Positions 14,916-55,672 of a stretch of 64,000 bases of DNA are shown here, one piece after another; the stretch's first letter is position 1; each line of letters begins with the position of its first letter. The position numbers were made by a program, and so were the translations under genes. Source of the DNA: Candidatus Nomurabacteria bacterium (GTDB lineage Bacteria > Patescibacteriota > Minisyncoccia > Phycocordibacterales > CALRBL01); contig CAWIDS010000001.1 in the NCBI GenBank assembly GCA_963834935.1, positions 236,499 to 300,498 on the forward strand. The letters are read 5' to 3'. The notes under the pieces are model-generated. The model was not told where the DNA came from. It searched no databases and saw only the letters and a list, made by a program, of their open reading frames with translations.

Positions 14916-15110
14916 CTACTTTTTATTTTCTGGCATTTTTTTGAGTATTTCTCTCATTTTGCCGATAAACTCTAACTCTGCCTTTAGAATTTTTTCTTTT
15001 TTCTCTAGCATGGCCAATTTAAACTCTTTTTTCATTGGTCCGTGCATATGGTGACAATGTCCATGTTCTTCGTGTCCTTCTCCACCTTCATAGTTTTCGT
15101 CGTGTATCAT
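14916..15110 (-). CDS. Small His-rich protein, possibly metal-binding
   Basis: 64 aa: EGGEGHEEHGHCHHMHGP followed by a Lys/Glu-rich helix. Confidence 0.35.
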   Translation of the reverse strand: MIHDENYEGGEGHEEHGHCHHMHGPMKKEFKLAMLEKKEKILKAELEFIGKMREILKKMPENKK

Positions 15111-15194
15111 AATTTTATTTTAAATATTAATTTATAACTCGACTTTTATGTTCGTAATTATTAATACGTTCACGAAGACAGAAACGGTGCTAAT

Positions 15195-16196: not shown

Positions 16197-16273
16197 AGTC
16201 TGTATCTAGTCATACGATAATACAAACAAAAAAGTTTCATTAACTTTTTTGTTTGTATTATCGAATTTCTTAA

Positions 16274-17050: not shown

Positions 17051-17065
17051 AATTTTTTATTTAAA

Positions 17066-17884: not shown

Positions 17885-18061
17885 AAAATTAATAATTTTT
17901 AGGGAACTATATACAATGTTACCCTAGATTATTTTAATGCTGGGGTGTTTTGGGTAATAAGTGCTATGTTGCTATCAATATTAACGAGATAAAGTTTAAT
18001 CTTAACCAGTTCGGAAAGTATAAGTATCAGTATTATTATATAAACTACGTGTAGCCATTTT

Positions 18062-34404: not shown

Positions 34405-34875
34405 ATGTCTTCTTCGATCTCGTGGAAAGCATACGAGTACCATCACATGCCGAAAACTGCCGACTGGTTTTGGGCTCTTGGGGTTATCTCAGTCTCGATC
34501 GCAGCCATTTCCCTCATCTATGGCAACATCATGTTCGCCATCCTCATCATCATCGCGGCAATCGCCCTTGCAATTCATGCCCACCGCGAGCCGAAGCTCG
34601 TCGATTTCGAACTCAACGAGAAAGGCCTCCGCATCGAGGACACGTTCTACCCCTACTCTTCCCTCGATTCATACAATATAGAGGCACACGACACCGATAT
34701 CGGCGTATTCGCCAAAGCCCTCATCAAATCGAAGAGGACATTCATGCCTCTTATCGTCATTCCGCTTGCCGATGTCTACATCGAGGAAGTCGACGAATAC
34801 CTTTCCATCTTCCTCAAGCAGGAAGACCATCACGAGACATTCGAGGAAAAAATCTTGGAGTATTTGGGTTTCTAG
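34405..34875 (+). CDS. Membrane hypothetical protein
   Basis: 156 aa, two N-terminal TM helices. Confidence 0.45.
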   Translation: MSSSISWKAYEYHHMPKTADWFWALGVISVSIAAISLIYGNIMFAILIIIAAIALAIHAHREPKLVDFELNEKGLRIEDTFYPYSSLDSYNIEAHDTDIGVFAKALIKSKRTFMPLIVIPLADVYIEEVDEYLSIFLKQEDHHETFEEKILEYLGF

Positions 34876-35108
34876 TGTATAAAAAGCCTGCGCCTAGGCG
34901 CTTCGCTCTCGTCGTTCAATGGATAGGACATAACTTTGCGGAAGTTAAAATATAGGTTCGATTCCTATCGAGAGCACATCGTAGTGAGACCTATCGGGAG
35001 GCCTAAATGCTGACTAATTTTGAATGAGTCAAGGCTGACCCCGATAGGAATCGAAAAAATAAATATCGATCCATTAAGGCGTTTCAAAAAAGCTGTTTTG
35101 GTAGTAGT

Positions 35109-35927
35109 ATGGCCAGTATGGATGTAGAAAATTATTTAAGGAGCATACTCAAGAAATACTCGATATCAGCTGATCTCAATCGGCTCATTGCCATTGGAAA
35201 CGCCGAAAAATCTGTCAGAGTAGTTATTACCGAATGGGCTCATACATTTCTACACGAGATCAAGCGGTCAGGCTCGATTGAGAAGGGCACTGCTATCTCG
35301 ACTTCGGCAGATCTTGATCTGTTTATATCGCTAAAATCAGAAACACCAGGTTCCTTGCCAGAGCTATACGAGGGTCTTGCCAAGTGGCTTGAGTCAAAGA
35401 ACTATAAAATCCGTAGACAGAATAGCTCCATCAGGATCAATCATGCAGGTATCAATGTCGATCTCATACCCGCACGAAAGTTCGCTAGTCAAAGCGGCTC
35501 TTTGCCGGGATTGCTCGGTCAGAGCCAAGACCACTCCATACGCATAAGGAAAAGTAACTCTTGGGCAAAGACTAATATTGAGGCACAGATACGGAAGGTC
35601 AAGGACTCAAGGAGACACGACGACATAAAGCTGGCTAAGATATGGCGTGATATAAGCGGTATCGATTTTCCGTCAATTTACCTTGAGCTTTCAGTCATCA
35701 AGGCTCTTAACGGCGATGCTCTAGGGTTGTTACTGCCGCCACCCATATCAAAAAGGTTCGTGACTTTCATGAACTACCTTGTCAATGACTTTGAGACAGC
35801 GACAATCGAAGACCCTGGCAATAAGAGTAACAAGATATCAGATGACCTCTCGACAGTAGAAAAGAAGGTGATTATCAACGCCGCAAAAAATGTCCTAACT
35901 AAAAACTGGACTCAAGTACTATGGTAA
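35109..35927 (+). CDS. Short cGAS/DncV-like nucleotidyltransferase (CD-NTase/SMODS-like) of a CBASS-type system
   Basis: GSIEKGTAISTSADLDLFISL (GS...GT...DhD, Pol-beta NTase motif) and the third acidic residue in INVDLIP. Overlaps the next gene by 7 nt (ATGGTAA). Confidence 0.6.
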   Translation: MASMDVENYLRSILKKYSISADLNRLIAIGNAEKSVRVVITEWAHTFLHEIKRSGSIEKGTAISTSADLDLFISLKSETPGSLPELYEGLAKWLESKNYKIRRQNSSIRINHAGINVDLIPARKFASQSGSLPGLLGQSQDHSIRIRKSNSWAKTNIEAQIRKVKDSRRHDDIKLAKIWRDISGIDFPSIYLELSVIKALNGDALGLLLPPPISKRFVTFMNYLVNDFETATIEDPGNKSNKISDDLSTVEKKVIINAAKNVLTKNWTQVLW

Positions 35928-36616
35928 AAAAGATCAACATTCAAAAATTATTCGAGGCACTCGACGAAGAGATGCGACTAAAGCTCTCGAGCAAGATCGA
36001 TGAGATATATCATCCGACCGCAAAGGGTGATGAGTCTGAGCTTAACTGGATCGGCTTGCTCAGGTCATATCTTCCCGAAAGGTATACCGTCGACAGTGGC
36101 TTCGTCGTCGATCACGAAGGTAATCTGAGCGAACAGATTGATATCATTATTTACGATAGGCATTTCACTCCTTTTATCTTTAGGGGAGAAAATGTGGTCT
36201 ATATTCCAGCCGAAGGTGTATATGCGGTCTTTGAGGTTAAGCCCTATTTTGACAAAAAGAATCATGATTACGCCGTAAAGAAGCTCGGTAGCGTCAAGGC
36301 ACTCAAAAGGACCTCGGCACAGTTTACGCATATCGGTGGTAAAGATAAAAAGGAGCTTTTTGATGTGGTCGGAGGGGTCTTAACCAAAGCGAACAAGGCG
36401 AAAAAGCTTTTCAATGATTTGACCATTGGCTCTGAACTATCAGTGATACTGTCGCTCGATCATGGGGTGAAAATCATAAATAGCGAGTCTGTTGAAAAAC
36501 AAGGCAAAGAAGCCGTATTGGCCTTTTTCTTGCTAAAGCTTATTGAGAAATTACGCGCCTTAGGGTCGGTACCTGCGCTAGAGGCGGATAAATATTTGGA
36601 GTCTATCAAAAAATAA
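35921..36616 (+). CDS. nucC: NucC-like cyclic-oligonucleotide-activated restriction-endonuclease-fold nuclease (CBASS effector)
   Basis: HPTAKGDESELNWIGLLRSYLPERY, IDIIIYDR and IPAEGVYAVFEVK (PD-ExK) parallel recalled E. coli NucC segments (HPGAKGDASEGVWIEMLDTYLPKRY, IDVVVFDR, VPAESVYAVFEAK). Confidence 0.6.
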   Translation: MVKKINIQKLFEALDEEMRLKLSSKIDEIYHPTAKGDESELNWIGLLRSYLPERYTVDSGFVVDHEGNLSEQIDIIIYDRHFTPFIFRGENVVYIPAEGVYAVFEVKPYFDKKNHDYAVKKLGSVKALKRTSAQFTHIGGKDKKELFDVVGGVLTKANKAKKLFNDLTIGSELSVILSLDHGVKIINSESVEKQGKEAVLAFFLLKLIEKLRALGSVPALEADKYLESIKK

Positions 36617-36625
36617 CGATAATTT

Positions 36626-38425
36626 ATGAGTATTTTGCAGAACATAAACGGTGCAGAAATCTCCTCGTGGTCTGGAGTAAATGTGTCCTCTAATAATTAC
36701 CTCGACCAAGGTCATTGCCTGTTTCGTTTTGTTCATGACGGCTACTGTAATAGTGCCATGCTTAGCACTCCGATTTATCTCGATCTAGGAGGTGCCCTAG
36801 CCGCCTTTGGTCTGTTATTTGCCGTATACCAACTCCGTAATCCTAAATGGGATACTGCCCTCAAAATCCGTGATGCTTGGCAACGCCACCTATTCTGGAT
36901 ACTGGGAATCATAGGCTTAGCTCTTGTCCTCGCACGAGTGCTGATAACGCAGATACCTGTAGATTATCTCAGTTACCCATTCAATGTTCCTATACTATAT
37001 GAGCTTTTAGCATACGTCTTCTTCGTAGCATCGCCACTCTCTTTGATGTATTTCGGGCAACGATCGAAGCATCTCTTCAAAGAAAGAACAGCGAGAAAAT
37101 TCTACGAGGTACTCATAGCAGAAGTGTCTCGTTCTGACGAAAAATGGATTGATGCCGCCCTCGAAGTGCTCATGCGCAATTTCGACGATATCTGCAAATC
37201 GATTGCTGAAAATGAGCCGAGGACTGAGATAAGCGGATCAGCTCGAGCGATCATCGATGTTGTCTTGAGCGAAGAGTCGATAGTTAAAATTTTGACCACC
37301 AAACGGCTCGATGCGCTTCAGCGTATATTTTATACAATCAAGAAATATCACATTAATCGCAATCAATGCGACGTCGGTATACCAGCACTTGTCAGAAATT
37401 TGTTCCTCGACGAAACATCTTTCTTTTACAAGCATCTTAACCGAGACGGCTTGGCATTGTCATTGAATATCTACGAAAGCATTTTTGAGTCACCGATACT
37501 GCTCACCAATTTTAATCTATTCGGGTATCCGACCTTGGGATACTCGGCACGAAATAATAGTGGCATCGCTATGAAGGTATTTATTCAGGCCCTGTCAAAA
37601 TCTATTGCCACATATTTGAAAACAGGAAAAGGGTCGGTGCGCTATATAAATGATGGTCTCGAATACCTCAGTGACGCATTCGGGAATATATGCATGAAAA
37701 TCAGCACTGAGGAAGGTAGAGGTGTTGATACGAGATACAGTTTAGAGGATGAATGGTGGACGTTGCATGACATCGCACATTTCTTGGGTCATGACTACCC
37801 ATTCCTGGTCTACCAAGACACACTTAATCAAATTACTGTTGATACAGAAAAGACAGCGTCTGAAGCAGGATTTTATTCTGATCTAACAATCAACGCTGGT
37901 ATTGCCGCCGTCTTATATAAAGCATTTGAACAACTCGCATATCTTAGAAAGACGACCGACATATATCATACCGTTCTCCAGCTACTGAATGGTATGATGT
38001 ACCACGAAAATTATAAGGAAGGATACAGGAATCCGTTTGAAAAAAGACTGTGGGAACAGATTGCCAAAAACGTATCAAGCAAGCACTATCCAAATGTGCT
38101 CAGGATCTACCTTACATTTATGGGCTTTATGCTCACCTCTGACGATACCAATCAGAGACAAGGTTGGATTGGTGGACAGACGGAGAGAATGAGGAGATTA
38201 CTCTATGTTGATCTCAAGCCGCTTCTCGATAGGGGTGAAAAGATGGTCAATGATGAGCTAATGATCGATGTCCTGCTTCCAGAATGGATGAAGTACAAAG
38301 ATGGCAAATTCTCGTATACTAATGGCTTTGGCAGGGGTGATACGAAAGTGATTACCGAGCCACCTGCGGGATCAGCATCGGCTTTAGTAGGTGTTGATAT
38401 GGATAATCGCAGTTCATTGCTCTAG
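36626..38425 (+). CDS. Large membrane protein of unknown function, operonic with the CD-NTase and nucC genes
   Basis: 599 aa. Three or four N-terminal TM helices and a ~450-aa soluble domain with no recognisable motifs. Starts 10 nt after the nucC stop. Confidence 0.5.
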   Translation: MSILQNINGAEISSWSGVNVSSNNYLDQGHCLFRFVHDGYCNSAMLSTPIYLDLGGALAAFGLLFAVYQLRNPKWDTALKIRDAWQRHLFWILGIIGLALVLARVLITQIPVDYLSYPFNVPILYELLAYVFFVASPLSLMYFGQRSKHLFKERTARKFYEVLIAEVSRSDEKWIDAALEVLMRNFDDICKSIAENEPRTEISGSARAIIDVVLSEESIVKILTTKRLDALQRIFYTIKKYHINRNQCDVGIPALVRNLFLDETSFFYKHLNRDGLALSLNIYESIFESPILLTNFNLFGYPTLGYSARNNSGIAMKVFIQALSKSIATYLKTGKGSVRYINDGLEYLSDAFGNICMKISTEEGRGVDTRYSLEDEWWTLHDIAHFLGHDYPFLVYQDTLNQITVDTEKTASEAGFYSDLTINAGIAAVLYKAFEQLAYLRKTTDIYHTVLQLLNGMMYHENYKEGYRNPFEKRLWEQIAKNVSSKHYPNVLRIYLTFMGFMLTSDDTNQRQGWIGGQTERMRRLLYVDLKPLLDRGEKMVNDELMIDVLLPEWMKYKDGKFSYTNGFGRGDTKVITEPPAGSASALVGVDMDNRSSLL

Positions 38426-39756
38426 GTAGTTTGTATCTGCACGACCTTGTTATTCACCACCACCTTGCTCTTGAGGCACGACAGTAGCTCTCGCTTCTCC
38501 CAGACACCGCCCTCACGCAGGATATACTTGGCATAGTTTCGTATATCGATGTCAGTGGTCTTGATAGCAGTCGGTTTTTCCCCAAGAAGTGATGACTGGA
38601 ATTTCTTGTGTCGCTCGATCTCGCTCTTGACCCGCTCTTTCATGCCGATCTCATCGAGGTCGATCTTGTCCATGAGTGTCGCCAGTTGTTCGATGAGGTC
38701 TTCTTCATTGATCCAGCCAGAGGTGCACTTCGGATCATTATGTCTGGTACATCCGTAGTAGACATATCGGTGGACATTGCCGTTCTTTTGCTTCTTGTAT
38801 TTCTCGTCAGCGGTGATGCCTGATCCGCATAGTCCGCAGGACATGAGCTTGGTGAAGGCGAACTCCTTATGATCGCCCCGGTCAGCATAGTCGATCATAT
38901 TCTCCTGCACTTTGTCGAAGAGCTCTTTGGTGATGAGGGGCGTATGCTTGCCCTGATACCACTGTCCACCGCCTTTCGGATACTCGAATGCGCCATAGTA
39001 GAAAGTATTGCGGAGTGTAAGGTAGACATTGCTCAAGGAAAATATCTTGCCGTTTCTGGTTTTGAATTTTATATCGTTCTTGAGCCATGCGTGAATCTTT
39101 CTACCACTCCATTTCTCATATCCTGCTTTTTCGAATACCTTTTTAACAATTGGCGCTCTATGGGGATCAACCTCGACATGACACCGCTTGTCCACATTCT
39201 TGCTATTAAGATAGCCAGTCGGTGCCGTGCATGGCCATAGTCCCATCTCGCATCGAGCTCGGAGTCCGCGCTTGACGTTAACCACCTTGTTGTCATTCTC
39301 GAGCTTGGCCTGTGATCCTAGAATCATCAGCATGAACTTGTCATTCGGCGTGTTCATGAATTTCTGGCCATAGGTGCGTATCTCGATGAGCTTCTTTTGA
39401 TCCATAAGGTCGACGATCCTTCCAAGGTCGCCGGCGTTTCGGCTGATACGATCCGGTGCCCATGTGAGGATGCCATTAAATTTACCACTTTTTATTTCAT
39501 CGACTATTTCATTGAATACTTGTCGTTGTCCCGCCTCCTTGGCCGAGTGCGACTCCTTCTTTATCTCTACAATCTCAAGGCACTCTTTTTCGGCCATGGC
39601 GATCATCTCCTTGATCTGCGAGTCGATGGACAAGACTTGTTTGTCCTCGGCCTCAGTTGATTTTCTCGCGTAAAGGCAGTACTTCATCGGTATCGCCTTT
39701 ATCTCCGGCTTTACAAAGGCGCCGGTAAACCCTTTTGTTGCTTGTATTTGTTGCAT
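38422..39756 (-). CDS. Large serine recombinase/integrase
   Basis: N-terminal resolvase domain YARKSTEAEDKQVLSIDSQ with the catalytic Ser, a recombinase domain and a C-terminal zinc ribbon (CGLCG...C..C). Confidence 0.85.
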   Translation of the reverse strand: MQQIQATKGFTGAFVKPEIKAIPMKYCLYARKSTEAEDKQVLSIDSQIKEMIAMAEKECLEIVEIKKESHSAKEAGQRQVFNEIVDEIKSGKFNGILTWAPDRISRNAGDLGRIVDLMDQKKLIEIRTYGQKFMNTPNDKFMLMILGSQAKLENDNKVVNVKRGLRARCEMGLWPCTAPTGYLNSKNVDKRCHVEVDPHRAPIVKKVFEKAGYEKWSGRKIHAWLKNDIKFKTRNGKIFSLSNVYLTLRNTFYYGAFEYPKGGGQWYQGKHTPLITKELFDKVQENMIDYADRGDHKEFAFTKLMSCGLCGSGITADEKYKKQKNGNVHRYVYYGCTRHNDPKCTSGWINEEDLIEQLATLMDKIDLDEIGMKERVKSEIERHKKFQSSLLGEKPTAIKTTDIDIRNYAKYILREGGVWEKRELLSCLKSKVVVNNKVVQIQTT

Positions 39757-39759
39757 ATT

Positions 39760-39783
39760 GGTATACCTGTTAGCTGGTATACC
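39760..39783. repeat. Two palindromic GGTATACC octamers 8 bp apart, immediately upstream of the recombinase start; candidate att core or operator
   Basis: GGTATACC-TGTTAGCT-GGTATACC. Confidence 0.3.
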
Positions 39784-39891
39784 TCAAGGGATGACGCAAC
39801 CCCGCCGAGGAGTCTAGGAGGCCTGAAGTTGGTAAAGTGTCGGTAACTAAATACTCAAAAAAGCTTCTAAAATATAGGAAAAAATGCTAGA

Positions 39892-41481
39892 GTGTCACTA
39901 ATAATGACAGTCAATAATCGCAAACAACTACACGAGAGACTATGGGCGGCGGCAGAGCAGTTGCGCGCCAACAGCTCGCTCAAACTCAATGAAATATCAG
40001 AGCCAATTTTAGGTTTGATTTTTCTTAAATTTGCCGATGTAAAATTCCGTAGAGCCAAAGCTGAAATCGAGAAAGAACGCGAAAAACTGACTGGCAGGAA
40101 GCCACCGATTACTCCCGATAATTATAAACAGCGAGGTGTACCATTTATTCCAGATGAAGCTGGCTATGCGCATCTCATGGATCTGCCTGAAGGTGAAAAT
40201 ATCGGCAAAGCAATCAATGACGCCATGAAGTCTATTGAACAAGAAAATCGCGAGCTGGCGGGCATTCTTCCGCAAGACTTTACCACTCTTTCATCACGTC
40301 CGGCAGAAAATAGTAGGATACTTCTTACACTTCTCAAAAACTTCAATCAAATTCCCGACGATATCGAGGGTGACGCTTTCGGCGAGATTTATGAATATTT
40401 TCTAGGTGAGTTTGCTCGCGCTGAAGGCCAAAAGGGCGGAGAATTCTTTACTCCGCAATCCATAGTCAAGCTTCTAGTGGAAATCATAGAGCCGTATCAC
40501 GGCAAGATTTTTGATCCGGCTTGCGGTTCGGGCGGCATGTTTGTGCAGTCGGCAAACTTTGTGGCGCGTCATCAAAAGAACAAGCGTCCGATCATGGAAG
40601 AAGTTGGTATTTATGGCCAAGAAAAAGGCGCCAACAATATGCGCGTGGCCAAAATGAACCTCGCCATTCATGGAATCTCTGGCAAAATCGAGCTTGCCAA
40701 TTCATTTTATGAAGATCCGCACAAAAGTATCGGCCAATTCGACTTCGTGCTCGCCAATCCGCCATTCAATGTAAAAGGCAAAGATAAGAACGGGCAAATC
40801 GTCATTGATCCGGCACGTCTCCAAGGCGATGCCCGCTATAACTACGGCCTCCCGCTTACCGGAAAGGGCGAAATCTCCAACGCCAACTATCTCTGGATGC
40901 AAATGTTTGCAAGCGCCTTGAACGACAAAGGCCGTGCCGGTTTTGTTATGGCCAATTCCGCGAGCGACGCTGGCAACGCCGAAAAAGTAATTCGCAGAAA
41001 AATGATTGATGCCGGAATGGTGGATGTGATTGTTTCGGTGGGAACAAATATGTTTATGAACGCCACGCTTTCTTGCACACTTTGGTTTTTTGATAAGCGG
41101 AAAAAAGGCACGGATAGGCAAAACGAAGTTTTGTTTATTAACGCGCAAGATATTTTCACGCCGATTGATCGCGCCCATAGCGAATGGACACCAGAGCAAA
41201 TCCAAGAAATAGCCGACATCGTATGCCGTTATCGGGGAGAAAAGGGCGAAGACGCATACAATGACATAAAAGGCCGATGCAAAGTGGCAACGCTTGAGGA
41301 AGTCCGTGCCAATGACTACTCGCTCAATCCGGGGCGCTATGTGGAGATTGTAGAAAAAGAAATGAGCGACGTGGACTTTGACGCGCGAATGAAAGAACTG
41401 ATGGGCGAGTTTACGGATTTGACCAGCGAAGCGCACAAGCTGGAAAAGAAAATCCAAGAGGATTGGAAAAAGATTTTATGA
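39892..41481 (+). CDS. hsdM: Type I restriction-modification N6-adenine methyltransferase subunit HsdM
   Basis: Motif I DPACGSGGMF and motif IV LANPPFN. N-terminal HsdM_N region. GTG or ATG(39904) start. Confidence 0.9.
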   Translation: MSLIMTVNNRKQLHERLWAAAEQLRANSSLKLNEISEPILGLIFLKFADVKFRRAKAEIEKEREKLTGRKPPITPDNYKQRGVPFIPDEAGYAHLMDLPEGENIGKAINDAMKSIEQENRELAGILPQDFTTLSSRPAENSRILLTLLKNFNQIPDDIEGDAFGEIYEYFLGEFARAEGQKGGEFFTPQSIVKLLVEIIEPYHGKIFDPACGSGGMFVQSANFVARHQKNKRPIMEEVGIYGQEKGANNMRVAKMNLAIHGISGKIELANSFYEDPHKSIGQFDFVLANPPFNVKGKDKNGQIVIDPARLQGDARYNYGLPLTGKGEISNANYLWMQMFASALNDKGRAGFVMANSASDAGNAEKVIRRKMIDAGMVDVIVSVGTNMFMNATLSCTLWFFDKRKKGTDRQNEVLFINAQDIFTPIDRAHSEWTPEQIQEIADIVCRYRGEKGEDAYNDIKGRCKVATLEEVRANDYSLNPGRYVEIVEKEMSDVDFDARMKELMGEFTDLTSEAHKLEKKIQEDWKKIL

Positions 41482-42635
41482 GCACTTGGACTAAGCAAAA
41501 ATTATCGGATATTTGCGACGTTAGGGACGGAACGCATGATTCACCTAAGCCTGCTACAAGTGGTTTTCCTTTGGTGACTTCAAAACATATAATAAATAAC
41601 AAAATTGATTTTTCGAGTGCATACTTGATAACGAATGAGGATTTTGATGCTGTAAATAAAAGAAGCAAAGTAAGCAAGTTCGATATTCTGATTAGTATGA
41701 TTGGTACTGTTGGTGAAATTGCTCTTGTAAAAGAGGAGCCTAGATTTGCTATAAAAAATGTTGGTCTAATAAAAACAAATAATGAAACACTGGGTAAATA
41801 TTTATTTTATTATCTAATTTCACCAACCGGTAAAAATATACTCAGTTCATTTCTTACAGGTTCAACACAAAAATTTATTAGCCTTAGTAAACTTAGAGAT
41901 TTTCCAATAACACTACCACCGGAAGAAAATCAAAATAAGATCACTTCTGTCCTCTCCGCCTACGATGACTTGATAGAAAACAATGAAAAGCGCATCAAGA
42001 TACTGGAAGAAATGGCACAACTTCTTTATACCGAATGGTTTGTAAAGTTCAAATTTCCCGGCTATGAAAAAGTAAAGGTGGTCCATAGTGGCACTGAATA
42101 CGGCAAGATTCCGACGGGGTGGGAGGTGAGAAATGTTGAAAGCTTAATCAAACGGATTCCGGTTGGTAAAAAATATGAAAATAAAAGTGTCCTTGAGATA
42201 GGCAGAGTCCCCGTACTTGATCAAGGGAAATCAGGCTTTATTGGTTATCACAATGACGAGCCTGGTGTAAAAGCTTCAATTGAAAACCCAGTGATTGTTT
42301 TTGCAAATCATACCTGCTATCAAAATATCATCGTCTATCCATTTTCGGCGATACAAAATGTTCTACCGTTTGTTCCAAATGATGAACGAGATATTTTTTG
42401 GTTGCACTGGTCTACGAAAGACCTAATTAAATTTAACGACTACAAAGGTCACTGGCCGGAATATATGTCAAAGAAACTCATTGTGCCGTCTGTTGATTTA
42501 ACAAAAAAATTCGGCAGTATTGTCGGTAAATATGTTGCGATGAAATATAAAATGGAAACAGAAAATAAAAACTTATCCCAAATCCGCGATCTTTTAATTC
42601 CCCAGCTGGTGAATGGGAAAAGGGATTTAAAATAA
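41463..42635 (+). CDS. hsdS: Type I R-M specificity subunit HsdS
   Basis: 390 aa. Two AT-rich target-recognition domains separated by conserved coiled-coil repeats (ITSVLSAYDDLIENNEKRIKILEEMAQLLYTEWF). Confidence 0.85.
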   Translation: MEKDFMSTWTKQKLSDICDVRDGTHDSPKPATSGFPLVTSKHIINNKIDFSSAYLITNEDFDAVNKRSKVSKFDILISMIGTVGEIALVKEEPRFAIKNVGLIKTNNETLGKYLFYYLISPTGKNILSSFLTGSTQKFISLSKLRDFPITLPPEENQNKITSVLSAYDDLIENNEKRIKILEEMAQLLYTEWFVKFKFPGYEKVKVVHSGTEYGKIPTGWEVRNVESLIKRIPVGKKYENKSVLEIGRVPVLDQGKSGFIGYHNDEPGVKASIENPVIVFANHTCYQNIIVYPFSAIQNVLPFVPNDERDIFWLHWSTKDLIKFNDYKGHWPEYMSKKLIVPSVDLTKKFGSIVGKYVAMKYKMETENKNLSQIRDLLIPQLVNGKRDLK

Positions 42636-42639
42636 TTTT

Positions 42640-43470
42640 ATGATAGCTCCAAATAGATTTTCGAGAAAGGATAAAGAATATTGCGGAATTAGGACTCACA
42701 GTAGATATGTCGGAAATATTTATTTATTATTGAACTCTGAAAAGTTGACATTCAATTTGGAACTAGAAAAAGATAATCATCTTGGATTTAAGGATGAAAT
42801 AAATAAAAAAATAATCAAGAAATTAGGAATTGTTCAGTATACAGTAGAATCTATACAGAAAGAATACGAATATTCAAAAACAGATGAAGAATTTTTACCA
42901 TTAGCACTATCTTGGATATGGATAAAGGGTTATTATGCCATCTTCCATCTCTTGTCTCTTTTGGTTGCGATTGAAAAATCTGATGAAAAATATATCTTTG
43001 ACAAGAAATTTAATCTACACCAAAAAATAAATAATAATGCGAATGAATTTTTATCAAGAAAACCATTCAATCTAGATGAAATTAACGAAGTATTTTGTGG
43101 AACTGATTTAGAAAAGTTTGTCACAAAAGACTATGAGAATTTAAAGACATTGAGTGAGTTTGATCAAAATCTTTACAAATTATCAATAAAGAAAGTATTT
43201 AAAGATAATAGGAAAAAGAACGGCGTAAAAGAGGCAAGGCAGAAACAATACTCAATATTTAATGTTTGTTTAAATTATAGGGAAATGTTTAATTATTCTG
43301 GGTTTCATTATATTGAAACGGAAGCTGAACAAAATCAGGAAGAAATAAAAAAACTTTATTTTGCTTCGCACTATGTAATTTTAGCTCTTGTTAATGCTAT
43401 AGCCGAATTTTTATCCAAAAAGACAGATGGGGCATTACATGATAAATTAGTAGAAATAACCAATTTATGA
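42640..43470 (+). CDS. Hypothetical protein embedded between hsdS and hsdR (AT-rich)
   Basis: 276 aa with no motifs. Coupled to hsdR by a 4-nt ATGA overlap. Confidence 0.5.
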   Translation: MIAPNRFSRKDKEYCGIRTHSRYVGNIYLLLNSEKLTFNLELEKDNHLGFKDEINKKIIKKLGIVQYTVESIQKEYEYSKTDEEFLPLALSWIWIKGYYAIFHLLSLLVAIEKSDEKYIFDKKFNLHQKINNNANEFLSRKPFNLDEINEVFCGTDLEKFVTKDYENLKTLSEFDQNLYKLSIKKVFKDNRKKNGVKEARQKQYSIFNVCLNYREMFNYSGFHYIETEAEQNQEEIKKLYFASHYVILALVNAIAEFLSKKTDGALHDKLVEITNL

Positions 43471-46400
43471 ACCCGTTCTCCGAAGACAACCTAGTCGAGC
43501 AAACGGTCATCAAGCTCATAAAAGAAGCATGGGCTGATTCTGCTTGCCACATAAATACTTATACCGATGAAGAAGATGCCAAACTGGGGCGAGAACATCG
43601 TGGTGAAGTGGTGCTGAAGAAATACCTTTTGCCAGCTTTGGAAAAATTGAATCCTGACTTGCCAAAAGAATCATTGGATCAAGCCGTTGAGCAAATTACC
43701 CGCGATAGGTCGCAAATGTCCTTGGTGAACGCTAACAAGGAGATTTATCAGCTCTTGCGTGACGGCGCCAGCGTGCAAGTAATGAACAAAGACGGGGAAT
43801 ACGAAACAGAAACCGCCCGCTTCTTTGACTTTACAAATCCTTCAAATAATTCTTTTTTATGCGTATCACAACTTTGGGTAGTCGGCGAAATGCATACAAA
43901 ACGACCGGATGTAGTACTTTTTGTAAATGGAATTCCACTTGTCCTTCTTGAACTAAAAGCATCGCATAAAAGCTTGGTAGATGCTCATCGAGACAATTTA
44001 CGCGATTATAAAGATACCATACCAAAACTACTTTGGTATAACCTCGGCATCATCATCAGCAATGGCATTGAAAATAAATTCGGTTCAATAACCTCGCCAT
44101 ACGAATTTTTTAATGAATGGAAAAAGGTTGAAAGCGAAGATGATAAACCAAAGACCGATATCGCTACTATTATTCGAGGCGTCTGTGATAAGGGACGGAT
44201 GATGGATATTTTTGAAAACTTTATTCTCTATGACGAATCCGGTCCAGGCGAAATCAAGAAAATCGTTCCGCGCTATTTTCAATACTACGGAGTCAATCGA
44301 GCCTTTCAAAAAGTAATCAACCGCAAGACAAATGAAGGAAAGCTCGGCGTTTTTTGGCATACACAAGGCTCAGGCAAATCGTATTCAATGGTTTACCTAT
44401 CGCAAAAAGTATTACGCAAACTGCAAGGTAATTTTACTTTTGTCATAGTAACCGACCGAAGCGACCTAGATCGACAGGCGTATGATAACTTTGCCAATGT
44501 TGGTGCTGTGTATGAAGCAGAAGTTCGGGCTAATTCAATTGTTCATTTGAAAGAATTATTGCGAGCGGATCATCGCCAAATTTTTACCACCATTCAAAAA
44601 TTCCAGGATATTCCCGATGCTATTTCAGAGCGCGATGATATTATCGTCATGACCGACGAGGCGCATCGCACTCAATATGACCGGATGGCGCAAAATATGC
44701 GTCGAGCATTGCCAAAAGCGGCATTCATTGGCTTTACCGGAACCCCGCTTATGGCTAAAGGCGAGGAAAAGACACGCGAAACATTCGGTAATTATGTGTC
44801 CCAGTATAACTTCGGTGATTCGGTGCGAGATGGTGCGACCGTGCCTTTGTATTATGAAAATCGTGTGCCGAGATTGGAGAATGTAAATAAGCAGTTGGAA
44901 CAAGAAATCGGCAAAGTCATGGACTTTTATGAGTTGAATGACGAGGAAGAGGAAAAACTAGAATCTGAATTTTCTACTTTCTATAACTTGGTGACTCGCG
45001 AAGATCGCCTCAATGCCATTGCGCGGGATATTGTTGAGCATTTTGTCGGTCGTGGATATAACGGCAAGGCAATGGTGGTTTCGATTGATAAAAAGACGGC
45101 AGTGAGAATGTACACAAAAGTGCGTGCCGAATGGGAGCGATATTTGGGGAAATTGCGAATGGATTTATCACGCACAACCGATGAATATGAGAGGGAAAAG
45201 ATTGAAGAAAAACTCACACGACATGAATACGTAGAGATGGCAGTAATGGTTAGTCAAAGCCAAAATGAGATAGCGGACTTGGAACCATTTGAGATAAATA
45301 TGCGGCCAATTCGCGAACACATTATACACGGCAATTTGGAAAAAGAATTTAAGAAAGCAGAAAGTAATCTACGCATTGTATTTGTCTGTGCCATGTGGAT
45401 GACCGGCTTTGATGTGCCTAATCTGTCAACACTATATCTCGATAAGCCGCTTAAAAATCACACTCTGATGCAAGCGATCGCGCGCGTCAATCGTGTTTCG
45501 CCCGGCAAGAATAACGGATTAATCGTCGACTATATCGGCGTATTTAGGAATATCGAAAAGGCTCTTGCAATTTACGCTTCTACCGAAGGTGGAGATGATG
45601 AAATTATCCGAAGCAAAGACGAGCTCGTGGATGAGTTGAGAGAAGCGCTTAAACTTGGTAAAAAATTCCTGCAAGAAGAGCATGTCGATCTGGCAAAAAT
45701 CGTTTCCGCTCTGGCCGAAGAAAAACTGCTTTTGCTTGAATACGCGGCCAATGCGATTGTGTCGGATGTGGCAAAGAAAAAGAAGTTTCTGAACCTTGCC
45801 TCGGATATACAGAATACATATTACGCAGTCTTGCCCGACCCATCGGCGGATGATTTTTATACTGAAGTGACGGCCATCCGTGTCATTGCTTCGCGCGTGC
45901 GCGATGTCGGTTCCGCAAGCATAGATGTGTCGCAAGTTAAGAAAGATATGGAAGACTTGCTAGATCGCTCAATACAAGCCGGCGAGTATGTCATTCCGCA
46001 ACACAAGCGACTGCGAGATTTGAGTATGCTTGATACGGATGCTTTACATGATTTTTTTGTAAAGTTGGACAACAAGAATTTGCAAGCAGAAAGTTTGAGC
46101 GCAGAGTTGAAAGGAAAAATCGAGGAAATGGTTAGGCGTAATCGAAAGCGAGCAAGGTTTATGGAACGGTTGGATTCCTTGCTCAAAGAATACAATTCCG
46201 GCGCGCATGATATAGATAAACTTTTGAATGATCTTGTGGCATTGGCAAAAGATCTTAATGAAGAGGAACAGCGCGCGGTAAAAGAGGGTTTGACCGAAGA
46301 CGAATTGGCAATTTTTGATCTGTTGCGCAAAGAAAACTTGAATCCAGATGAAACAGCCAAAGTGCGTTTGGTCGCAAAAGAACTATTGGAAAAGTTAAAA

Positions 46401-46592
46401 GATAAACTTGTGCTCGGCTGGCGAGATTTTGAGCCGTTACGTTCGGGTGTGAAAATTACGATATCAGATGTCTTGTTTCCAAAGCTGCCTGAATCGGTTT
46501 ATACAGAGAATGATTGTGAGAAAAAAGGATTGGAAGTTTATAATTTTGTGTATGAGAATTATCCGAATGCTAAATCGTTTTCGCATAATTAA
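43467..46592 (+). CDS. hsdR: Type I restriction enzyme R subunit HsdR (SF2 helicase plus nuclease)
   Basis: 1041 aa. N-terminal nuclease region (VLFVNGIPLVLLELK), Walker A TQGSGKS, DEAH box MTDEAHRTQY, motif VI QAIARVNR. Confidence 0.9.
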   Translation: MNPFSEDNLVEQTVIKLIKEAWADSACHINTYTDEEDAKLGREHRGEVVLKKYLLPALEKLNPDLPKESLDQAVEQITRDRSQMSLVNANKEIYQLLRDGASVQVMNKDGEYETETARFFDFTNPSNNSFLCVSQLWVVGEMHTKRPDVVLFVNGIPLVLLELKASHKSLVDAHRDNLRDYKDTIPKLLWYNLGIIISNGIENKFGSITSPYEFFNEWKKVESEDDKPKTDIATIIRGVCDKGRMMDIFENFILYDESGPGEIKKIVPRYFQYYGVNRAFQKVINRKTNEGKLGVFWHTQGSGKSYSMVYLSQKVLRKLQGNFTFVIVTDRSDLDRQAYDNFANVGAVYEAEVRANSIVHLKELLRADHRQIFTTIQKFQDIPDAISERDDIIVMTDEAHRTQYDRMAQNMRRALPKAAFIGFTGTPLMAKGEEKTRETFGNYVSQYNFGDSVRDGATVPLYYENRVPRLENVNKQLEQEIGKVMDFYELNDEEEEKLESEFSTFYNLVTREDRLNAIARDIVEHFVGRGYNGKAMVVSIDKKTAVRMYTKVRAEWERYLGKLRMDLSRTTDEYEREKIEEKLTRHEYVEMAVMVSQSQNEIADLEPFEINMRPIREHIIHGNLEKEFKKAESNLRIVFVCAMWMTGFDVPNLSTLYLDKPLKNHTLMQAIARVNRVSPGKNNGLIVDYIGVFRNIEKALAIYASTEGGDDEIIRSKDELVDELREALKLGKKFLQEEHVDLAKIVSALAEEKLLLLEYAANAIVSDVAKKKKFLNLASDIQNTYYAVLPDPSADDFYTEVTAIRVIASRVRDVGSASIDVSQVKKDMEDLLDRSIQAGEYVIPQHKRLRDLSMLDTDALHDFFVKLDNKNLQAESLSAELKGKIEEMVRRNRKRARFMERLDSLLKEYNSGAHDIDKLLNDLVALAKDLNEEEQRAVKEGLTEDELAIFDLLRKENLNPDETAKVRLVAKELLEKLKDKLVLGWRDFEPLRSGVKITISDVLFPKLPESVYTENDCEKKGLEVYNFVYENYPNAKSFSHN

Positions 46593-48460: not shown

Positions 48461-49666
48461 TCAGTGCTGAAAGAAGCTTCCGTCCTCATTGTAGTTCTGT
48501 GATTTGGGAATACCGCAGGCATTCCAGATGAGATCGAATATAGGCCGTAAAAGTCTATCGACAGATTTGGACTCGTCTTCAAGGAGCTCACCGGATAGAA
48601 TCAAATCCTTCTGTAAAATAGGATGCTCACTATCAAATCGATGTCTTCCGTACGATGCAGTACCACCTCTTGTCATAGTCATACCTTTCACATTCAGCAA
48701 AGAGATCATTATTAGGATAGGTACACCAACCTCGATTTTTTTCATGATCTTTAATGCCCTTTCAACCCCGTCAATGATTTCGCCTTCCAACAATCCTGAG
48801 GCAATTATGGTGCCATCGCCACGATCGAGTATTGAACTGTTTACTAATTCTATTGCTCCATTCCTAAATATCTGAGTGAAAGAATGAGTGCCTTCACCTG
48901 CTACCACAGGAGAATAAGAAAACATGCCTTCAAGATTGACTCGGAACGGATTCCATCCCTGTATAGGATATATTGGTTTGGAGAGTTCTGTTTCACCTTT
49001 GAGAGAAAGCAGAACATCTTGACCAATGATCTTTTTTGCCGAAAAGCCTTCGAGAGGCAATAGATGTACAACCACCAGGTTGTTACTAGTAAGCGGAAGT
49101 GTGGTATTTCCGGTTTCAACGGCAAATAATCTCTCGGTGCGGAACTCGGCCATCCTTTTTTCAATGCCGTTTGATAGTGTGAAAATCTGTCGTAATTCTT
49201 CGACATCTAAGTCATATTTTCCTGCAGAAGTCCTTGCACAGAACCTATTACTTCCGCCACATGTTACGCGATGTGGTTTATTCCAGCTTTCGCGGATGCG
49301 AATGACAATGATGTATTCGCCAGGATTACCGGCGAGTATAGGATGGACAATAAATGGGAACCTTGGGTTGATTCCGGTGCGGATCATTCCCTCAATGCGC
49401 AATACTTCAGCATCTATGTTGTCTATTGCCAGTGGCCGCAATGCCATCGGCACGCCATTGGTGGCTTCTATGCCTAGAATCAAGTCTCCGCCAGCAGAAT
49501 TGGTAAATGAAGAGACGTCCGCCAAAAAATCTTTTTTCTGCGGGTCATTGCTGATGGATAGTCCTCGCTTGTATTCAATTGTCTTATCTTCTCGCACCGC
49601 AGAGGTGATGAGACCTTGAATATCCGATATTACTATGTCCTCAATCTTTTTTTGTATCATAGACAC
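48461..49666 (-). CDS. AlbA_2 (Schlafen-like, 'divergent AAA') domain protein, a putative DNA-binding or defence-associated protein
   Basis: N-terminal TIEYKRGLS...KDFLADVSSFTNSAGGDLILGIE matches the AlbA_2 signature (E.K...aFaN..GG.l.iGv). Confidence 0.55.
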   Translation of the reverse strand: MSMIQKKIEDIVISDIQGLITSAVREDKTIEYKRGLSISNDPQKKDFLADVSSFTNSAGGDLILGIEATNGVPMALRPLAIDNIDAEVLRIEGMIRTGINPRFPFIVHPILAGNPGEYIIVIRIRESWNKPHRVTCGGSNRFCARTSAGKYDLDVEELRQIFTLSNGIEKRMAEFRTERLFAVETGNTTLPLTSNNLVVVHLLPLEGFSAKKIIGQDVLLSLKGETELSKPIYPIQGWNPFRVNLEGMFSYSPVVAGEGTHSFTQIFRNGAIELVNSSILDRGDGTIIASGLLEGEIIDGVERALKIMKKIEVGVPILIMISLLNVKGMTMTRGGTASYGRHRFDSEHPILQKDLILSGELLEDESKSVDRLLRPIFDLIWNACGIPKSQNYNEDGSFFQH

Positions 49667-53742: not shown

Positions 53743-53884
53743 CGTGTGGCACTCCTAACTACATAATAAATATATGGTTATCAAGACTCTTATCATCGGC
53801 TTTACTCCGCTTAATGACACAACAGGTCAAAAACCTCGCGCTATTCGTGATGACGCATACATGAAGGAGTTGCTTGCCAAGTTT
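53743..53884 (+). repeat. Left copy of the 142-bp direct repeat flanking the IS1634-like element; it duplicates the 5' end of gene 55562..56440
   Basis: Identical to 55531-55672 from CGTGTGGCACTCC through GCCAAGTTT. Confidence 0.85.
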
Positions 53885-55530: not shown

Positions 55531-55672
55531 CGTGTGGCACTCCTAACTACATAATAAATATATGGTTATCAAGACTCTTATCATCGGCTTTACTCCGCTT
55601 AATGACACAACAGGTCAAAAACCTCGCGCTATTCGTGATGACGCATACATGAAGGAGTTGCTTGCCAAGTTT
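55531..55672 (+). repeat. Right copy of the 142-bp direct repeat
   Basis: See 53743-53884. Confidence 0.85.

What the first reader, a model, noticed from the sequence alone, without database searches (positions are those of the whole stretch)
35109..38425. CBASS-like operon: short CD-NTase, NucC-like nuclease and an uncharacterised 599-aa membrane protein
- Three translationally coupled genes.
- Gene 1 has the Pol-beta nucleotidyltransferase motif (GS...GTAISTSADLDLFISL) and a third acidic residue (INVDLIP). At 272 aa it is shorter than typical CD-NTases.
- Gene 2 matches NucC along most of its length by recalled sequence (HP.AKGD.SE..WI.LL.SYLP.RY, IDIIIYDR, EGVYAVFEVK, C-terminal F..LKLIE.L...G.VPA).
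- Gene 3 is a multi-TM protein with no recognisable domain. It is not a usual CBASS partner.
- It could be a second effector, a regulator or a separate abortive-infection gene.
- The operon sits next to a serine recombinase and a type I R-M system, so this is a defence island.
Basis: partly seen in the sequence, partly recalled or inferred. Interest (0 to 1): 0.8.

Follow-up and report, generated by a model that had tools for sequence, protein, structure and literature searches.

The report
Two-gene CBASS plus unrelated membrane gene
A 4.9-kb mobile island inserted after a tRNA gene carries an ordinary two-gene CBASS phage-defence system (a short cyclase plus the NucC nuclease) and, as separate cargo, an uncharacterised membrane protein whose relatives elsewhere sit behind restriction systems rather than next to CBASS.

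Summary
The three ORFs are real. Gene 1 (35109-35927) is a CD-NTase: PADLOC cyclase E=4.9e-77, invariant GS/DxD/D triad, and a model that best matches E. coli CdnC. Gene 2 (35921-36616) is NucC: PADLOC E=2e-74, solved NucC structures at E~1e-39, ID..EVK motif and most cA3-pocket residues kept. Together they form a type I CBASS, a known kind.

Gene 3 (36626-38425) is not a CBASS component. Its family has about 313 clusters, mostly from Patescibacteria, all unannotated. In 35 distinct loci it lies near a cyclase once and near NucC never. The closest cyclase+NucC relatives (L024/L025, L085, also L026, L028) lack it.

Gene 3 homologues typically end gene arrays of type I, II, III-like or IV-like restriction systems, or abut a serine recombinase (11 loci including the window). 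The protein has three N-terminal TM helices and a cytoplasmic alpha-solenoid. It has no specific fold relative among solved or viral structures.

The block from tRNA-Arg to the recombinase recurs at 89% identity in an unrelated genomic context (L083). This defines a ~4.9-kb mobile unit with all four genes under purifying selection. Gene 3 is a plausible but untested new defence-island gene.

The parts
34905..34977 (+). tRNA-Arg (anticodon GCG). It is the host gene whose 3' end marks the left junction of the island.
   Evidence: Found by ARAGORN and Rfam (62 bits). Against L083 the tRNA is only 79.5% identical, with compensatory stem changes. Identity becomes perfect right after its 3' end.
34978..35108 (+). 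Left end of the mobile unit. This spacer carries a strong hairpin (about 34990-35048), and one arm of the hairpin is an inverted copy of the tRNA T-arm. It is a possible recombinase site and/or the promoter region of the operon (inference).
   Evidence: 95.4% identical between the two genomic contexts, higher than the coding regions. Predicted fold -33.2 kcal/mol, z = -2.35. No Rfam family matches.
35109..35927 (+). Gene 1: short CdnC-like CD-NTase (CBASS cyclase), 272 aa.
   Evidence: PADLOC Cyclase PDLC00803 E=4.9e-77, full length. G55, S56, D68, D70 and D118 are invariant in a 40-member family alignment. AF2 model pLDDT 93; best Foldseek hits CdnC 6u7b/6p80 at E~4e-13, TM 0.70. dN/dS 0.08.
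35921..36616 (+). Gene 2: NucC endonuclease effector, 231 aa.
   Evidence: PADLOC NucC effector PDLC00745 E=2e-74. Pfam DUF6602 E=1.3e-32. PDB NucC 6uxf E=4e-39 and 6p7o E=3e-38. D74/E105/K107 and R54/F82/S216/V217/H137 align with the published functional residues. dN/dS 0.045.
36626..38425 (+). Gene 3: 599-aa protein with three N-terminal TM helices (N-terminus outside) and a cytoplasmic alpha-solenoid domain of about 450 aa. It belongs to an unannotated family and is independent cargo, not a CBASS part.
38422..39756 (-). Large serine recombinase, 444 aa. It is convergent with gene 3 and their stop codons overlap by 4 nt. It is the presumed integrase of the island.
   Evidence: Resolvase 6e-20, Recombinase 7e-15, Zn_ribbon_recom 9e-9. 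Closest NCBIfam model is CcrB, well below its cut-off. Orthologues at 52-60% identity sit in the same position in L012, L014, L015, L019 and L024.
39757..39850 (.). Right end of the mobile unit, upstream of the recombinase gene. Similarity to the second copy fades out here.
   Evidence: L083 14628-14685 matches window 39790-39847 at 84%. Identity drops to about 51% (random) beyond 39850.
39892..46592 (+). Neighbouring type I R-M system, outside the 4.9-kb unit: hsdM 39892-41481, hsdS 41463-42635, an unknown 276-aa ORF 42640-43470, and hsdR 43467-46592.
   Evidence: PADLOC MTase_I 5e-188, Specificity_I 5e-62, REase_I 3e-184. Not shared with L083.

Best explanation
**What it is.** Window ~34978-39850 is a small (~4.9 kb) integrative island. 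It is inserted immediately after tRNA-Arg(GCG) and encodes a large serine recombinase at its far end. Its cargo is two independent modules.

**Module 1: a minimal type I CBASS (genes 1 and 2).**
- On phage infection the short CdnC-like CD-NTase makes a cyclic oligonucleotide. This is most likely cyclic tri-AMP, inferred from its CdnC/CdnD-like fold and its NucC partner.
- The signal binds the three-fold pocket of a NucC trimer and drives hexamer formation.
- NucC then cuts double-stranded DNA non-specifically, killing the infected cell (abortive infection).

**Module 2: gene 3.**
- It is a membrane-anchored protein with three TM helices, the N-terminus outside, and a large cytoplasmic alpha-solenoid.
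- It belongs to an unannotated accessory family spread mainly among Patescibacteria.
- It is co-transcribed with the CBASS here only because the cassettes are stacked.
- Elsewhere the same family follows restriction-modification operons of several types, or stands alone beside serine recombinases.
- My best guess for its role is an autonomous defence or exclusion protein: the solenoid senses a phage or incoming-DNA component, and the membrane part acts or localises at the envelope. This step is inference only.

**Shown versus inferred.**
- Shown: gene identities, catalytic residues, folds, the non-association of gene 3 with CBASS, the borders of the mobile unit, and purifying selection.
- Inferred: the nucleotide product, the abortive-infection outcome, the recombinase acting at the tRNA end, and the function of gene 3.
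For: **Cyclase**
- PADLOC E=4.9e-77.
- Invariant G55, S56, D68, D70, D118.
- The model's best fold matches are CdnC, then CdnD.

**NucC**
- PADLOC E=2e-74; PDB hits at E~1e-39.
- Functional residues mapped from Lau et al., bioRxiv 10.1101/694703.

**Type I architecture**
- No HORMA, TRIP13, Cap2 or Cap3 domain in any neighbour.
- Type I is defined as one cyclase plus one Cap gene in PMC10419184.
- The same cyclase+NucC pair occurs as a two-gene unit in L024/L025, L026, L028 (Paenibacillus) and L085.

**Independence of gene 3**
- Of 35 distinct loci, a cyclase appears in 1 and NucC in 0.
- Upstream arrays are R-M systems in at least 12 of 38 loci.
- A serine recombinase is the top neighbour, in 11 distinct loci including the window.
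- Three cargo layouts share orthologous recombinases: tRNA|CBASS|rec, tRNA|gene 3|rec and tRNA|CBASS+gene 3|rec.

**Mobile unit**
- L083 shares 88.9% identity from window 34905 to 39686, plus 39790-39847, inside otherwise unrelated flanks.

**Functionality**
- dN/dS is 0.045-0.08 for all four genes.

**Gene 3 anatomy**
-.
Against: - Gene 3 starts 9 nt after NucC with no terminator or promoter signal between them, so it is expressed together with the CBASS here.
- The cyclase-NucC-gene 3 block has stayed together and intact in at least two genomic contexts.
- A second, diverged genome (L005/L011) has a cyclase 1.4 kb upstream of a gene 3 homologue.
- A lineage-specific functional link therefore cannot be excluded.
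- No att site or empty target site was identified.
- The nucleotide product is not known.
- The NucC latch residue Tyr141 is not conserved.
- The defence role of gene 3 rests on guilt by association, without a computed background rate.
Confidence: 0.8

Rival explanations
1. This is a three-gene CBASS variant in which the membrane protein is a second effector, a sensor that switches the cyclase on, or a regulator.
For: - 9-nt spacing and no terminator between NucC and gene 3.
- The three genes travel together at about 90-94% identity in two contexts, with gene 3 intact and at dN/dS 0.046.
- L005/L011 again combines a cyclase with gene 3.
- The cyclase is structurally closest to CdnC, which in E. 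coli needs a HORMA partner. No HORMA is present here, so an alternative activator is conceivable.
Against: - Family level: cyclase in 1 of 35 loci, NucC in 0 of 35.
- The closest CBASS relatives (62%/77% and 61%/85% identity) abut the recombinase without gene 3.
- The cyclase family is found as two-gene systems with NucC, 1-TM or exonuclease effectors.
- The gene 3 model has no known cyclic-nucleotide-sensing fold.
- No PADLOC CBASS model hits it.
Confidence: 0.07
2. Gene 3 is a general accessory of DNA-cutting defence systems (R-M of several types, NucC-CBASS). For example, it could be a membrane-anchored scaffold that senses DNA entry and localises or licenses the nuclease encoded upstream.
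For: - Gene 3 is the last gene of tight co-directional arrays, with gaps ranging from a short overlap to about 25 nt in most.
- It follows type II R-M (C-protein + EcoRI-like MTase + GmrSD_N-HNH REase; L051, L054, L058).
- It follows N6_N4 MTase + MutH-like nuclease (L044) and MTase + ResIII helicase (L001/L031, L029, L039).
- It follows type I HsdR (L033), AAA-HNH (L035) and McrB_N-HNH (L059).
- In the window it follows NucC.
- All of these partners cut DNA.
Against: - The partners are too diverse for one specific protein-protein interface.
- 17 of 38 loci have no co-directional upstream gene within 200 nt, for example tRNA|gene 3|rec in L012, L014 and L019. Gene 3 can therefore stand alone.
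- Tight spacing is common in compact genomes and in stacked defence cassettes.
Confidence: 0.13
3. Gene 3 belongs to the mobile-element backbone rather than to its defence cargo. It might serve entry exclusion, element maintenance or control of the recombinase.
For: - The serine recombinase is by far the commonest neighbour, in 11 distinct loci.
- In 7 of these it is convergent and directly abuts gene 3 or overlaps its stop codon. Read-through from gene 3 could then interfere with recombinase expression.
- The family is patchy across phyla, as expected of mobile DNA.
Against: - 39 of 49 loci have no serine recombinase within 1.2 kb.
- The recombinases involved belong to different subfamilies (27-60% identity) and sit in different orientations.
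- Elements with the orthologous recombinase exist without gene 3 (L024/L025, L085).
- The family is absent from sequenced phages, plasmids and IMG/VR contigs.
Confidence: 0.12
4. Gene 3 is an ordinary housekeeping envelope protein whose flank happens to be an insertion hot spot.
For: - Strong purifying selection.
- Constant single architecture across the family.
Against: - It is rare: 313 clusters among 1.84 billion representatives, and 15 loci among 185,579 species genomes in a pattern-limited scan.
- Its flanks differ in nearly every locus.
- It moved with the island into an unrelated context.
Confidence: 0.04

Closest known systems
Type I CBASS (one CD-NTase plus one effector, no ancillary genes)
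   Same: - A cyclase immediately followed by, and overlapping, an effector gene.
- No Cap2/Cap3 or HORMA/TRIP13 genes.
- Located in a defence island on mobile DNA.
- The short cyclase clade is already represented by a PADLOC CBASS model (PDLC00803) that it matches end to end.
   Different: - NucC was characterised in type III (HORMA/TRIP13) operons, whereas here it is paired with a regulator-less 250-270-aa cyclase.
- The host is a Patescibacteria-type genome.
- The Pfam SMODS and NCBIfam CBASS-cyclase models do not reach their cut-offs.
E. coli MS115-1 CdnC + NucC (type III CBASS; PDB 6P80, 6P7O/6P7P)
   Same: - The cyclase model's best structural match is CdnC (E=4e-13, TM 0.70).
- NucC aligns over its full length at E~1e-38.
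- The active site and the cA3-pocket residues are kept outright or conservatively (Tyr to Phe, Thr to Ser).
   Different: - No HORMA or TRIP13 partners.
- The cyclase is about 50 residues shorter, and its sequence similarity to CdnC is only marginal (E=0.013).
- The NucC gate loop is one residue shorter and lacks the Tyr141 latch.
Transmembrane CBASS effectors (1TM/2TM/4TM Cap proteins)
   Same: Gene 3 has N-terminal TM helices and follows a cyclase operon.
   Different: - It matches no PADLOC effector model.
- It has no nucleotide-sensing domain.
- It is much larger, with a 450-aa alpha-solenoid.
- Its family does not co-occur with cyclases.
Membrane-anchored defence sensors such as Zorya ZorA and Kiwa KwaA (analogy only, from general knowledge)
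   Same: A few TM helices plus a long helical cytoplasmic part, encoded in defence islands next to DNA-targeting proteins.
   Different: - No sequence match.
- No conserved partner gene.
SCC-type cassettes and other islands moved by large serine recombinases (CcrA/B-like)
   Same: A small island carrying accessory cargo, with a Resolvase + Recombinase + Zn-ribbon recombinase. The closest NCBIfam model is CcrB.
   Different: - It sits exactly at the 3' end of tRNA genes (Arg, Gln, Ser), rather than at rlmH.
- The score is far below the CcrB family cut-off (120 against 900 bits).
- The cargo is phage defence.

Membership tests
CD-NTase / CBASS cyclase (gene 1) | Pol-beta nucleotidyltransferase catalytic residues: GS motif, [DE]x[DE] and a third acidic residue | tested here: met
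   G55, S56, D68, D70 and D118 are invariant in 40 family members. They are aligned with the CdnC motifs.
CD-NTase / CBASS cyclase (gene 1) | CD-NTase fold | tested here: met
   AF2 model pLDDT 93, pTM 0.89. The top Foldseek PDB hits are all CD-NTases: CdnC 4e-13, then CdnD, CdnB and CdnG.
CD-NTase / CBASS cyclase (gene 1) | Curated profile match | tested here: inconclusive
   PADLOC Cyclase PDLC00803 matches at 4.9e-77 over its full length. Pfam SMODS scores 20 bits, below its 26.5 cut-off. NCBIfam CBASS_cyclase_a scores 39 bits against a cut-off of 200.
CD-NTase / CBASS cyclase (gene 1) | Synthesis of a cyclic oligonucleotide | not testable with these tools
   cA3 is inferred from the CdnC/CdnD-like fold and the NucC partner.
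NucC endonuclease (gene 2) | Active-site motif IDx30EAK (Asp73, Glu104, Lys106 in E. coli NucC) | tested here: met
   I73-D74 ... E105-V106-K107, aligned without gaps. Motif taken from 10.1101/694703.
NucC endonuclease (gene 2) | cA3 pocket residues Arg53, Tyr81, Thr226, Val227 | tested here: met
   R54, F82 (aromatic kept), S216 (hydroxyl kept) and V217. Two are conservative substitutions.
NucC endonuclease (gene 2) | Gate-loop latch residues His136 and Tyr141 | tested here: inconclusive
   H137 is present. Tyr141 falls in a one-residue gap of the alignment, and V. metoecus NucC also lacks Tyr there.
NucC endonuclease (gene 2) | Homotrimer that becomes a hexamer on cA3 binding | not tested
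   No multimer prediction was available.
Type I CBASS (operon) | Cyclase plus a single effector, with no Cap2/Cap3 or HORMA/TRIP13 genes | tested here: met
   Neighbouring ORFs carry no such domains. The two-gene form recurs in L024, L026, L028 and L085.
Type III CBASS | HORMA and TRIP13 regulator genes | tested here: not met
   None in the window around the operon.
CBASS effector or accessory protein (gene 3) | Recurrent genomic association with CD-NTases | tested here: not met
   Cyclase in 1 of 35 and NucC in 0 of 35 distinct loci, by tblastn and profile HMMs. Five of six other cyclase-family loci lack gene 3.
CBASS effector or accessory protein (gene 3) | A cyclic-nucleotide-sensing domain (SAVED, STING, CARF-like, or the NucC pocket) | tested here: not met
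Known anti-phage defence families (gene 3) | Match to any PADLOC-DB v2 model | tested here: not met
   0 families at E<=1.
Large serine recombinase (38422-39756) | Resolvase catalytic domain + Recombinase domain + zinc ribbon | tested here: met
   6e-20, 7e-15 and 9e-9, all above the gathering scores.
Type I restriction-modification (39892-46592) | HsdM, HsdS and HsdR subunits | tested here: met
   PADLOC 5e-188, 5e-62 and 3e-184.

The most novel reading that the evidence does not exclude
The gene 3 family (three TM helices plus a cytoplasmic alpha-solenoid; about 300 sequence clusters; no relative in any domain, defence or structure library searched) is a new single-gene anti-phage defence or exclusion system of Patescibacteria and a few other phyla. 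Alternatively, it is a membrane-anchored partner shared by many DNA-cutting defence systems. It is shuffled as a cassette, together with R-M and CBASS modules, in small serine-recombinase islands that insert at the 3' ends of tRNA genes.
Probability: 0.35. Interest if true: 0.7.

Novelty: new member of a known kind. Interest (0 to 1): 0.45.

Why it matters
- **The CBASS itself is ordinary.** It is a regulator-less cyclase plus NucC. Its value is as an example from the ultra-small Patescibacteria, whose defence repertoire is little studied, and as a compact cA3-NucC pair that appears to need no HORMA partner.
- **Gene 3 is the more useful outcome.** It is a conserved, selected, completely unannotated membrane protein. 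It recurs at the tail of restriction operons and beside serine recombinases, which makes it a concrete, testable candidate for a new defence function.
- **The island has defined borders.** The 4.9-kb island with nucleotide-level borders offers a simple model of how defence cassettes are stacked and exchanged at tRNA genes by a serine recombinase.

Tried and rejected
- **Profile searches for gene 3.** Pfam, PADLOC, NCBIfam and PHROGs gave nothing. A profile of 42 family members against PDB sequences gave 0 hits at E<=10.
- **Fold searches for gene 3.**
  - Foldseek against BFVD gave nothing below E=0.05.
  - The AlphaFold-database library was not installed, so annotated predicted-structure relatives could not be sought.
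- **att-type direct repeat.** I looked for a repeat of the tRNA 3' end downstream and found none. This is as expected for serine recombinases, so it is uninformative.
- **Structured RNA.** Rfam finds only the tRNA in 34800-40000.
- **Gene 3 as phage- or plasmid-borne.** No match in 50,697 phage records, 72,556 plasmids or IMG/VR.
- **The 452-aa product in L083 as a truncation.** Rejected: the ORF is intact, at 592 aa with an in-frame 21-nt deletion.
- **Literature.** Searches for CBASS in Patescibacteria found nothing directly relevant.
- **Background rate.** I did not compute how often R-M genes lie next to random genes in these genomes, so the defence-island enrichment of gene 3 is qualitative.


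Full report
**1. Observation**

One search lists three same-strand ORFs exactly as described: 35109-35927 (272 aa), 35921-36616 (231 aa) and 36626-38425 (599 aa).
- Genes 1 and 2 overlap by 7 nt. Genes 2 and 3 are separated by 9 nt.
- A consensus scan finds no promoter-like or terminator-like site between genes 2 and 3, so the three genes are probably one transcript here.
- A 444-aa ORF on the minus strand (38422-39756) converges on gene 3, and their stop codons overlap by 4 nt.

**2. Gene 1 is a CD-NTase**
- It matches the PADLOC model 'Cyclase' PDLC00803 end to end (E=4.9e-77).
- General libraries are weaker. Pfam SMODS gives 20 bits against a cut-off of 26.5. NCBIfam CBASS_cyclase_a gives 39 bits against 200.
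- Its family has 63 clusters of 250-270 aa, which sources name 'nucleotidyltransferase' at most. Members occur in Paenibacillus, Phycisphaerae and Paceibacterota.
- In an alignment of 40 members, G55, S56, D68, D70 and D118 are invariant.
- An AlphaFold2 model built on that alignment is confident (pLDDT 93, pTM 0.89). Its best matches among solved structures are E. coli MS115-1 CdnC (E=4e-13, TM 0.70), then P. aeruginosa CdnD, CdnB and CdnG.
- 'Short' is a property of the whole clade, not a truncation.

**3. Gene 2 is NucC**
- PADLOC effector 'Endonuclease (NucC)' E=2e-74 and 'NucC nuclease' 1.7e-50. Pfam DUF6602 1.3e-32.
- Solved NucC structures: 6uxf 4e-39, 6p7o 3e-38.
- The defining residues come from Lau et al., bioRxiv 10.1101/694703. 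I mapped them through the alignment:

| E. coli NucC residue | Role | Gene 2 residue |
|---|---|---|
| Asp73 | Active site | D74 |
| Glu104 | Active site | E105 |
| Lys106 | Active site | K107 |
| Arg53 | cA3 pocket | R54 |
| Tyr81 | cA3 pocket | F82 |
| Thr226 | cA3 pocket | S216 |
| Val227 | cA3 pocket | V217 |
| His136 | Gate-loop latch | H137 |
| Tyr141 | Gate-loop latch | one-residue gap |

- A cA3-activated DNA endonuclease is thus well supported, with a slightly different gate loop.

**4. Operon type**
- No neighbouring ORF has HORMA, TRIP13, Cap2 or Cap3 domains.
- One cyclase plus one effector is the definition of type I CBASS (PMC10419184).
- The same pair recurs as a two-gene unit in four other loci:
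  - L024/L025: cyclase 62%, NucC 77% identical.
  - L085: 61% and 85%.
  - L026: 45% and 41%.
  - L028, Paenibacillus, next to a type I R-M system: 38% and 37%.
- The clade also pairs with other effectors. L027 has a 1-TM effector and an exonuclease effector flanking the cyclase.

**5. Gene 3: what it is**
- It has no hit in Pfam, PADLOC, NCBIfam or PHROGs.
- A 42-sequence profile finds nothing among PDB sequences, even at E<=10.
- It belongs to a real family.
  - More than 135 clusters at 43-68% identity.
  - 313 clusters at E<=1e-3 in an exhaustive profile search of 1.84 billion representatives. Nearly all full-length members are 540-600 aa with one architecture.
  - All are called 'hypothetical'.
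- Named sources are mostly Patescibacteria (Paceibacterota, Kaiserbacteria, Saccharibacteria, Magasanikiibacteriota, Peregrinibacteria). A few are Eremiobacterota and a Chlamydiales MAG.
- The AlphaFold2 model is confident (pLDDT 85.8, pTM 0.81). It shows three N-terminal TM helices, then about 450 residues of stacked helices with a small C-terminal beta-hairpin.
- Mean K+R counts across the family are 4.3 in loop 1, 0.3 in loop 2 and 5.5 after TM3. This puts the N-terminus outside and the large domain in the cytoplasm.
- No enzyme-like or nucleotide-sensor fold is apparent.

**6. Gene 3: whom it travels with**

I collected 76 loci encoding family members. These reduce to 59 distinct loci.
- Among the 35 with at least 1.6 kb upstream, a cyclase homologue occurs in one (L005=L011) and NucC in none. 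This holds by tblastn and by profile HMMs built here.
- The commonest neighbour is a large serine recombinase, in 11 distinct loci including the window. In seven of these it is convergent and directly abuts gene 3.
- In 21 of 38 loci, gene 3 is the last gene of a co-directional array. In at least 12 of the 38, that array is a restriction system:

| Upstream array | Loci |
|---|---|
| HTH C-protein + EcoRI-like MTase + GmrSD_N-HNH type II REase | L051, L054, L058 |
| N6_N4 MTase + MutH-like nuclease | L044 |
| N6_N4 MTase + other genes | L030, L041 |
| MTase + ResIII helicase | L001/L031, L029, L039 |
| Type I HsdR | L033 |
| AAA-HNH | L035 |
| McrB_N-HNH | L059 |

- Beyond the recombinase there is again an R-M or other defence module in L012, L014, L015 and the window.
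- The family is absent from sequenced phages, plasmids and IMG/VR.
- Gene 3 is therefore a defence-island resident with no specific tie to CBASS.

**7. The slot**

In loci with the orthologous recombinase, a tRNA gene lies directly upstream of the cargo.

| Layout | Loci |
|---|---|
| tRNA-Gln, gene 3, recombinase | L012, L014 |
| tRNA-Ser, gene 3, recombinase | L019 |
| tRNA-Ser, two other genes, gene 3, recombinase, type I R-M | L015 |
| tRNA-Gln, cyclase, NucC, recombinase | L024, L025 |
| Cyclase, NucC, recombinase remnant (no tRNA found) | L085 |
| tRNA-Arg, cyclase, NucC, gene 3, recombinase | window |

CBASS and gene 3 are thus alternative cargoes that can be stacked.

**8. The mobile unit**
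- L083 (JGI contig, 101 kb) carries the same four genes between RuvA/ribosomal protein S20 on one side and a PDC-S37/Hhe-like helicase on the other.
- The only DNA it shares with the 64-kb window is window 34905-39686 at 88.9% identity, plus 39790-39847.
- Segment identities:

| Segment | Identity |
|---|---|
| Left flank | 45% |
| tRNA | 79.5% |
| Spacer | 95.4% |
| Cyclase | 94.0% |
| NucC | 91.7% |
| Gene 3 | 90.1% |
| Recombinase | 79.5% |
| Beyond 39850 | ~51% |

- The two tRNA-Arg genes differ by compensatory stem changes. Identity becomes perfect right after the tRNA 3' end. The left junction is therefore at about 34977/34978, and the tRNA is the host target.
- Gene 3 is intact in L083 (592 aa, with one in-frame 21-nt deletion).
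- dN/dS is 0.081 (cyclase), 0.045 (NucC), 0.046 (gene 3) and 0.058 (recombinase). dS is 0.24, 0.41, 0.44 and 1.42 respectively.
- All four genes are under purifying selection. The cargo is far less diverged than the recombinase, which suggests cargo exchange between elements (inference).
- L082 (100% identical) and L084 (92%) are further copies.
- The spacer forms a strong hairpin (-33 kcal/mol, z=-2.35) that matches no Rfam family. It may be a recombinase site or a regulatory element (inference).

**9. Mechanism**
- **CBASS.** Phage infection activates the cyclase, though the trigger is unknown, as for type I systems generally. A cyclic oligonucleotide, probably cA3, binds NucC trimers. These pair into hexamers and shred DNA, aborting the infection (mechanism from Lau et al.; applied here by homology).
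- **Gene 3.** The most likely role is an autonomous membrane-anchored defence or exclusion protein. Its cytoplasmic solenoid would act as a binding or sensing surface. This rests on association only. I put about 0.35 on a defence role of its own or as a shared accessory.
- **Rivals.** These are a lineage-specific CBASS partner, a shared accessory of nucleases, an element-backbone function and a housekeeping protein. They are weighed in their own section.

**10. Verdict**
- The CBASS and NucC calls and the defence-island setting are right.
- The proposal that gene 3 is an unusual CBASS partner is not supported.
- The CBASS is a new member of a known kind.
- The noteworthy leftovers are the unannotated gene 3 family and the small island that inserts at tRNA ends, carries swappable defence cassettes and encodes a serine recombinase.

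Noticed in passing
window 53743-53884 and 55531-55672: A perfect 142-nt direct repeat flanks a 508-aa DDE_Tnp_1 transposase ORF (53909-55435, minus strand). Direct rather than inverted flanking repeats of this length are unusual for an insertion sequence.
   Followed up: no
window 42640-43470: A 276-aa ORF with no Pfam or PADLOC hit is wedged between hsdS and hsdR of the type I R-M system and overlaps the hsdR start by 4 nt. It is a possible unrecognised accessory gene.
   Followed up: partly
window 34978-35108 (hairpin about 34990-35048): The spacer after tRNA-Arg is more conserved between island copies (95%) than the genes. It folds into a strong hairpin (-33 kcal/mol, z=-2.35), and one arm is an inverted copy of the tRNA T-arm. 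No Rfam family matches.
   Followed up: partly
window 34905-39850 versus L083 9797-14688: Synonymous divergence rises along the island: cyclase 0.24, NucC 0.41, gene 3 0.44, recombinase 1.42. This suggests the cargo block was exchanged between elements with diverged recombinases.
   Followed up: partly
L012, L014, L019, L015, L024, L025, L021 and the window: Islands with related large serine recombinases begin directly downstream of tRNA genes (Gln-TTG, Gln-CTG, Ser-GCT, Arg-GCG). L024 and L025 carry the identical cyclase protein behind two different tRNA-Gln isoacceptor genes. Insertion at tRNA ends is more typical of tyrosine integrases.
   Followed up: partly
L027 4493-6288: A member of the same short-cyclase clade is flanked by two different CBASS effector types. 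One is a 1-TM effector (PDLC00664, 1e-61) and the other an exonuclease effector (PDLC00753, 1e-14).
   Followed up: no
L005/L011 (L011 7749-12126): A Kaiserbacteria MAG has a cyclase (49% identical) with no NucC. Next come two minus-strand ORFs, one a weak 1-TM-effector match (PDLC01057, 1.5e-11). A gene 3 homologue and a 134-aa recombinase remnant follow. This looks like a decayed or rearranged version of the window's island.
   Followed up: partly
L083 14800-19533: In its second context the island sits next to a 1577-aa DUF4011 helicase that matches PADLOC PDC-S37 (E=0) and Hhe. Both insertion sites are therefore in defence neighbourhoods.
   Followed up: no
window 48461-49666 (minus strand): A 401-aa protein with a Schlafen AlbA_2 domain (1.6e-11) lies 2 kb beyond the R-M system. 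It has no PADLOC hit.
   Followed up: no
window 12001-18000 and 1001-2000: A 6-kb stretch has GC of 0.32-0.37, against about 0.50 for the window's GC-rich stretches, and may be another foreign insert. One 1-kb bin has a GC skew of 0.44.
   Followed up: no
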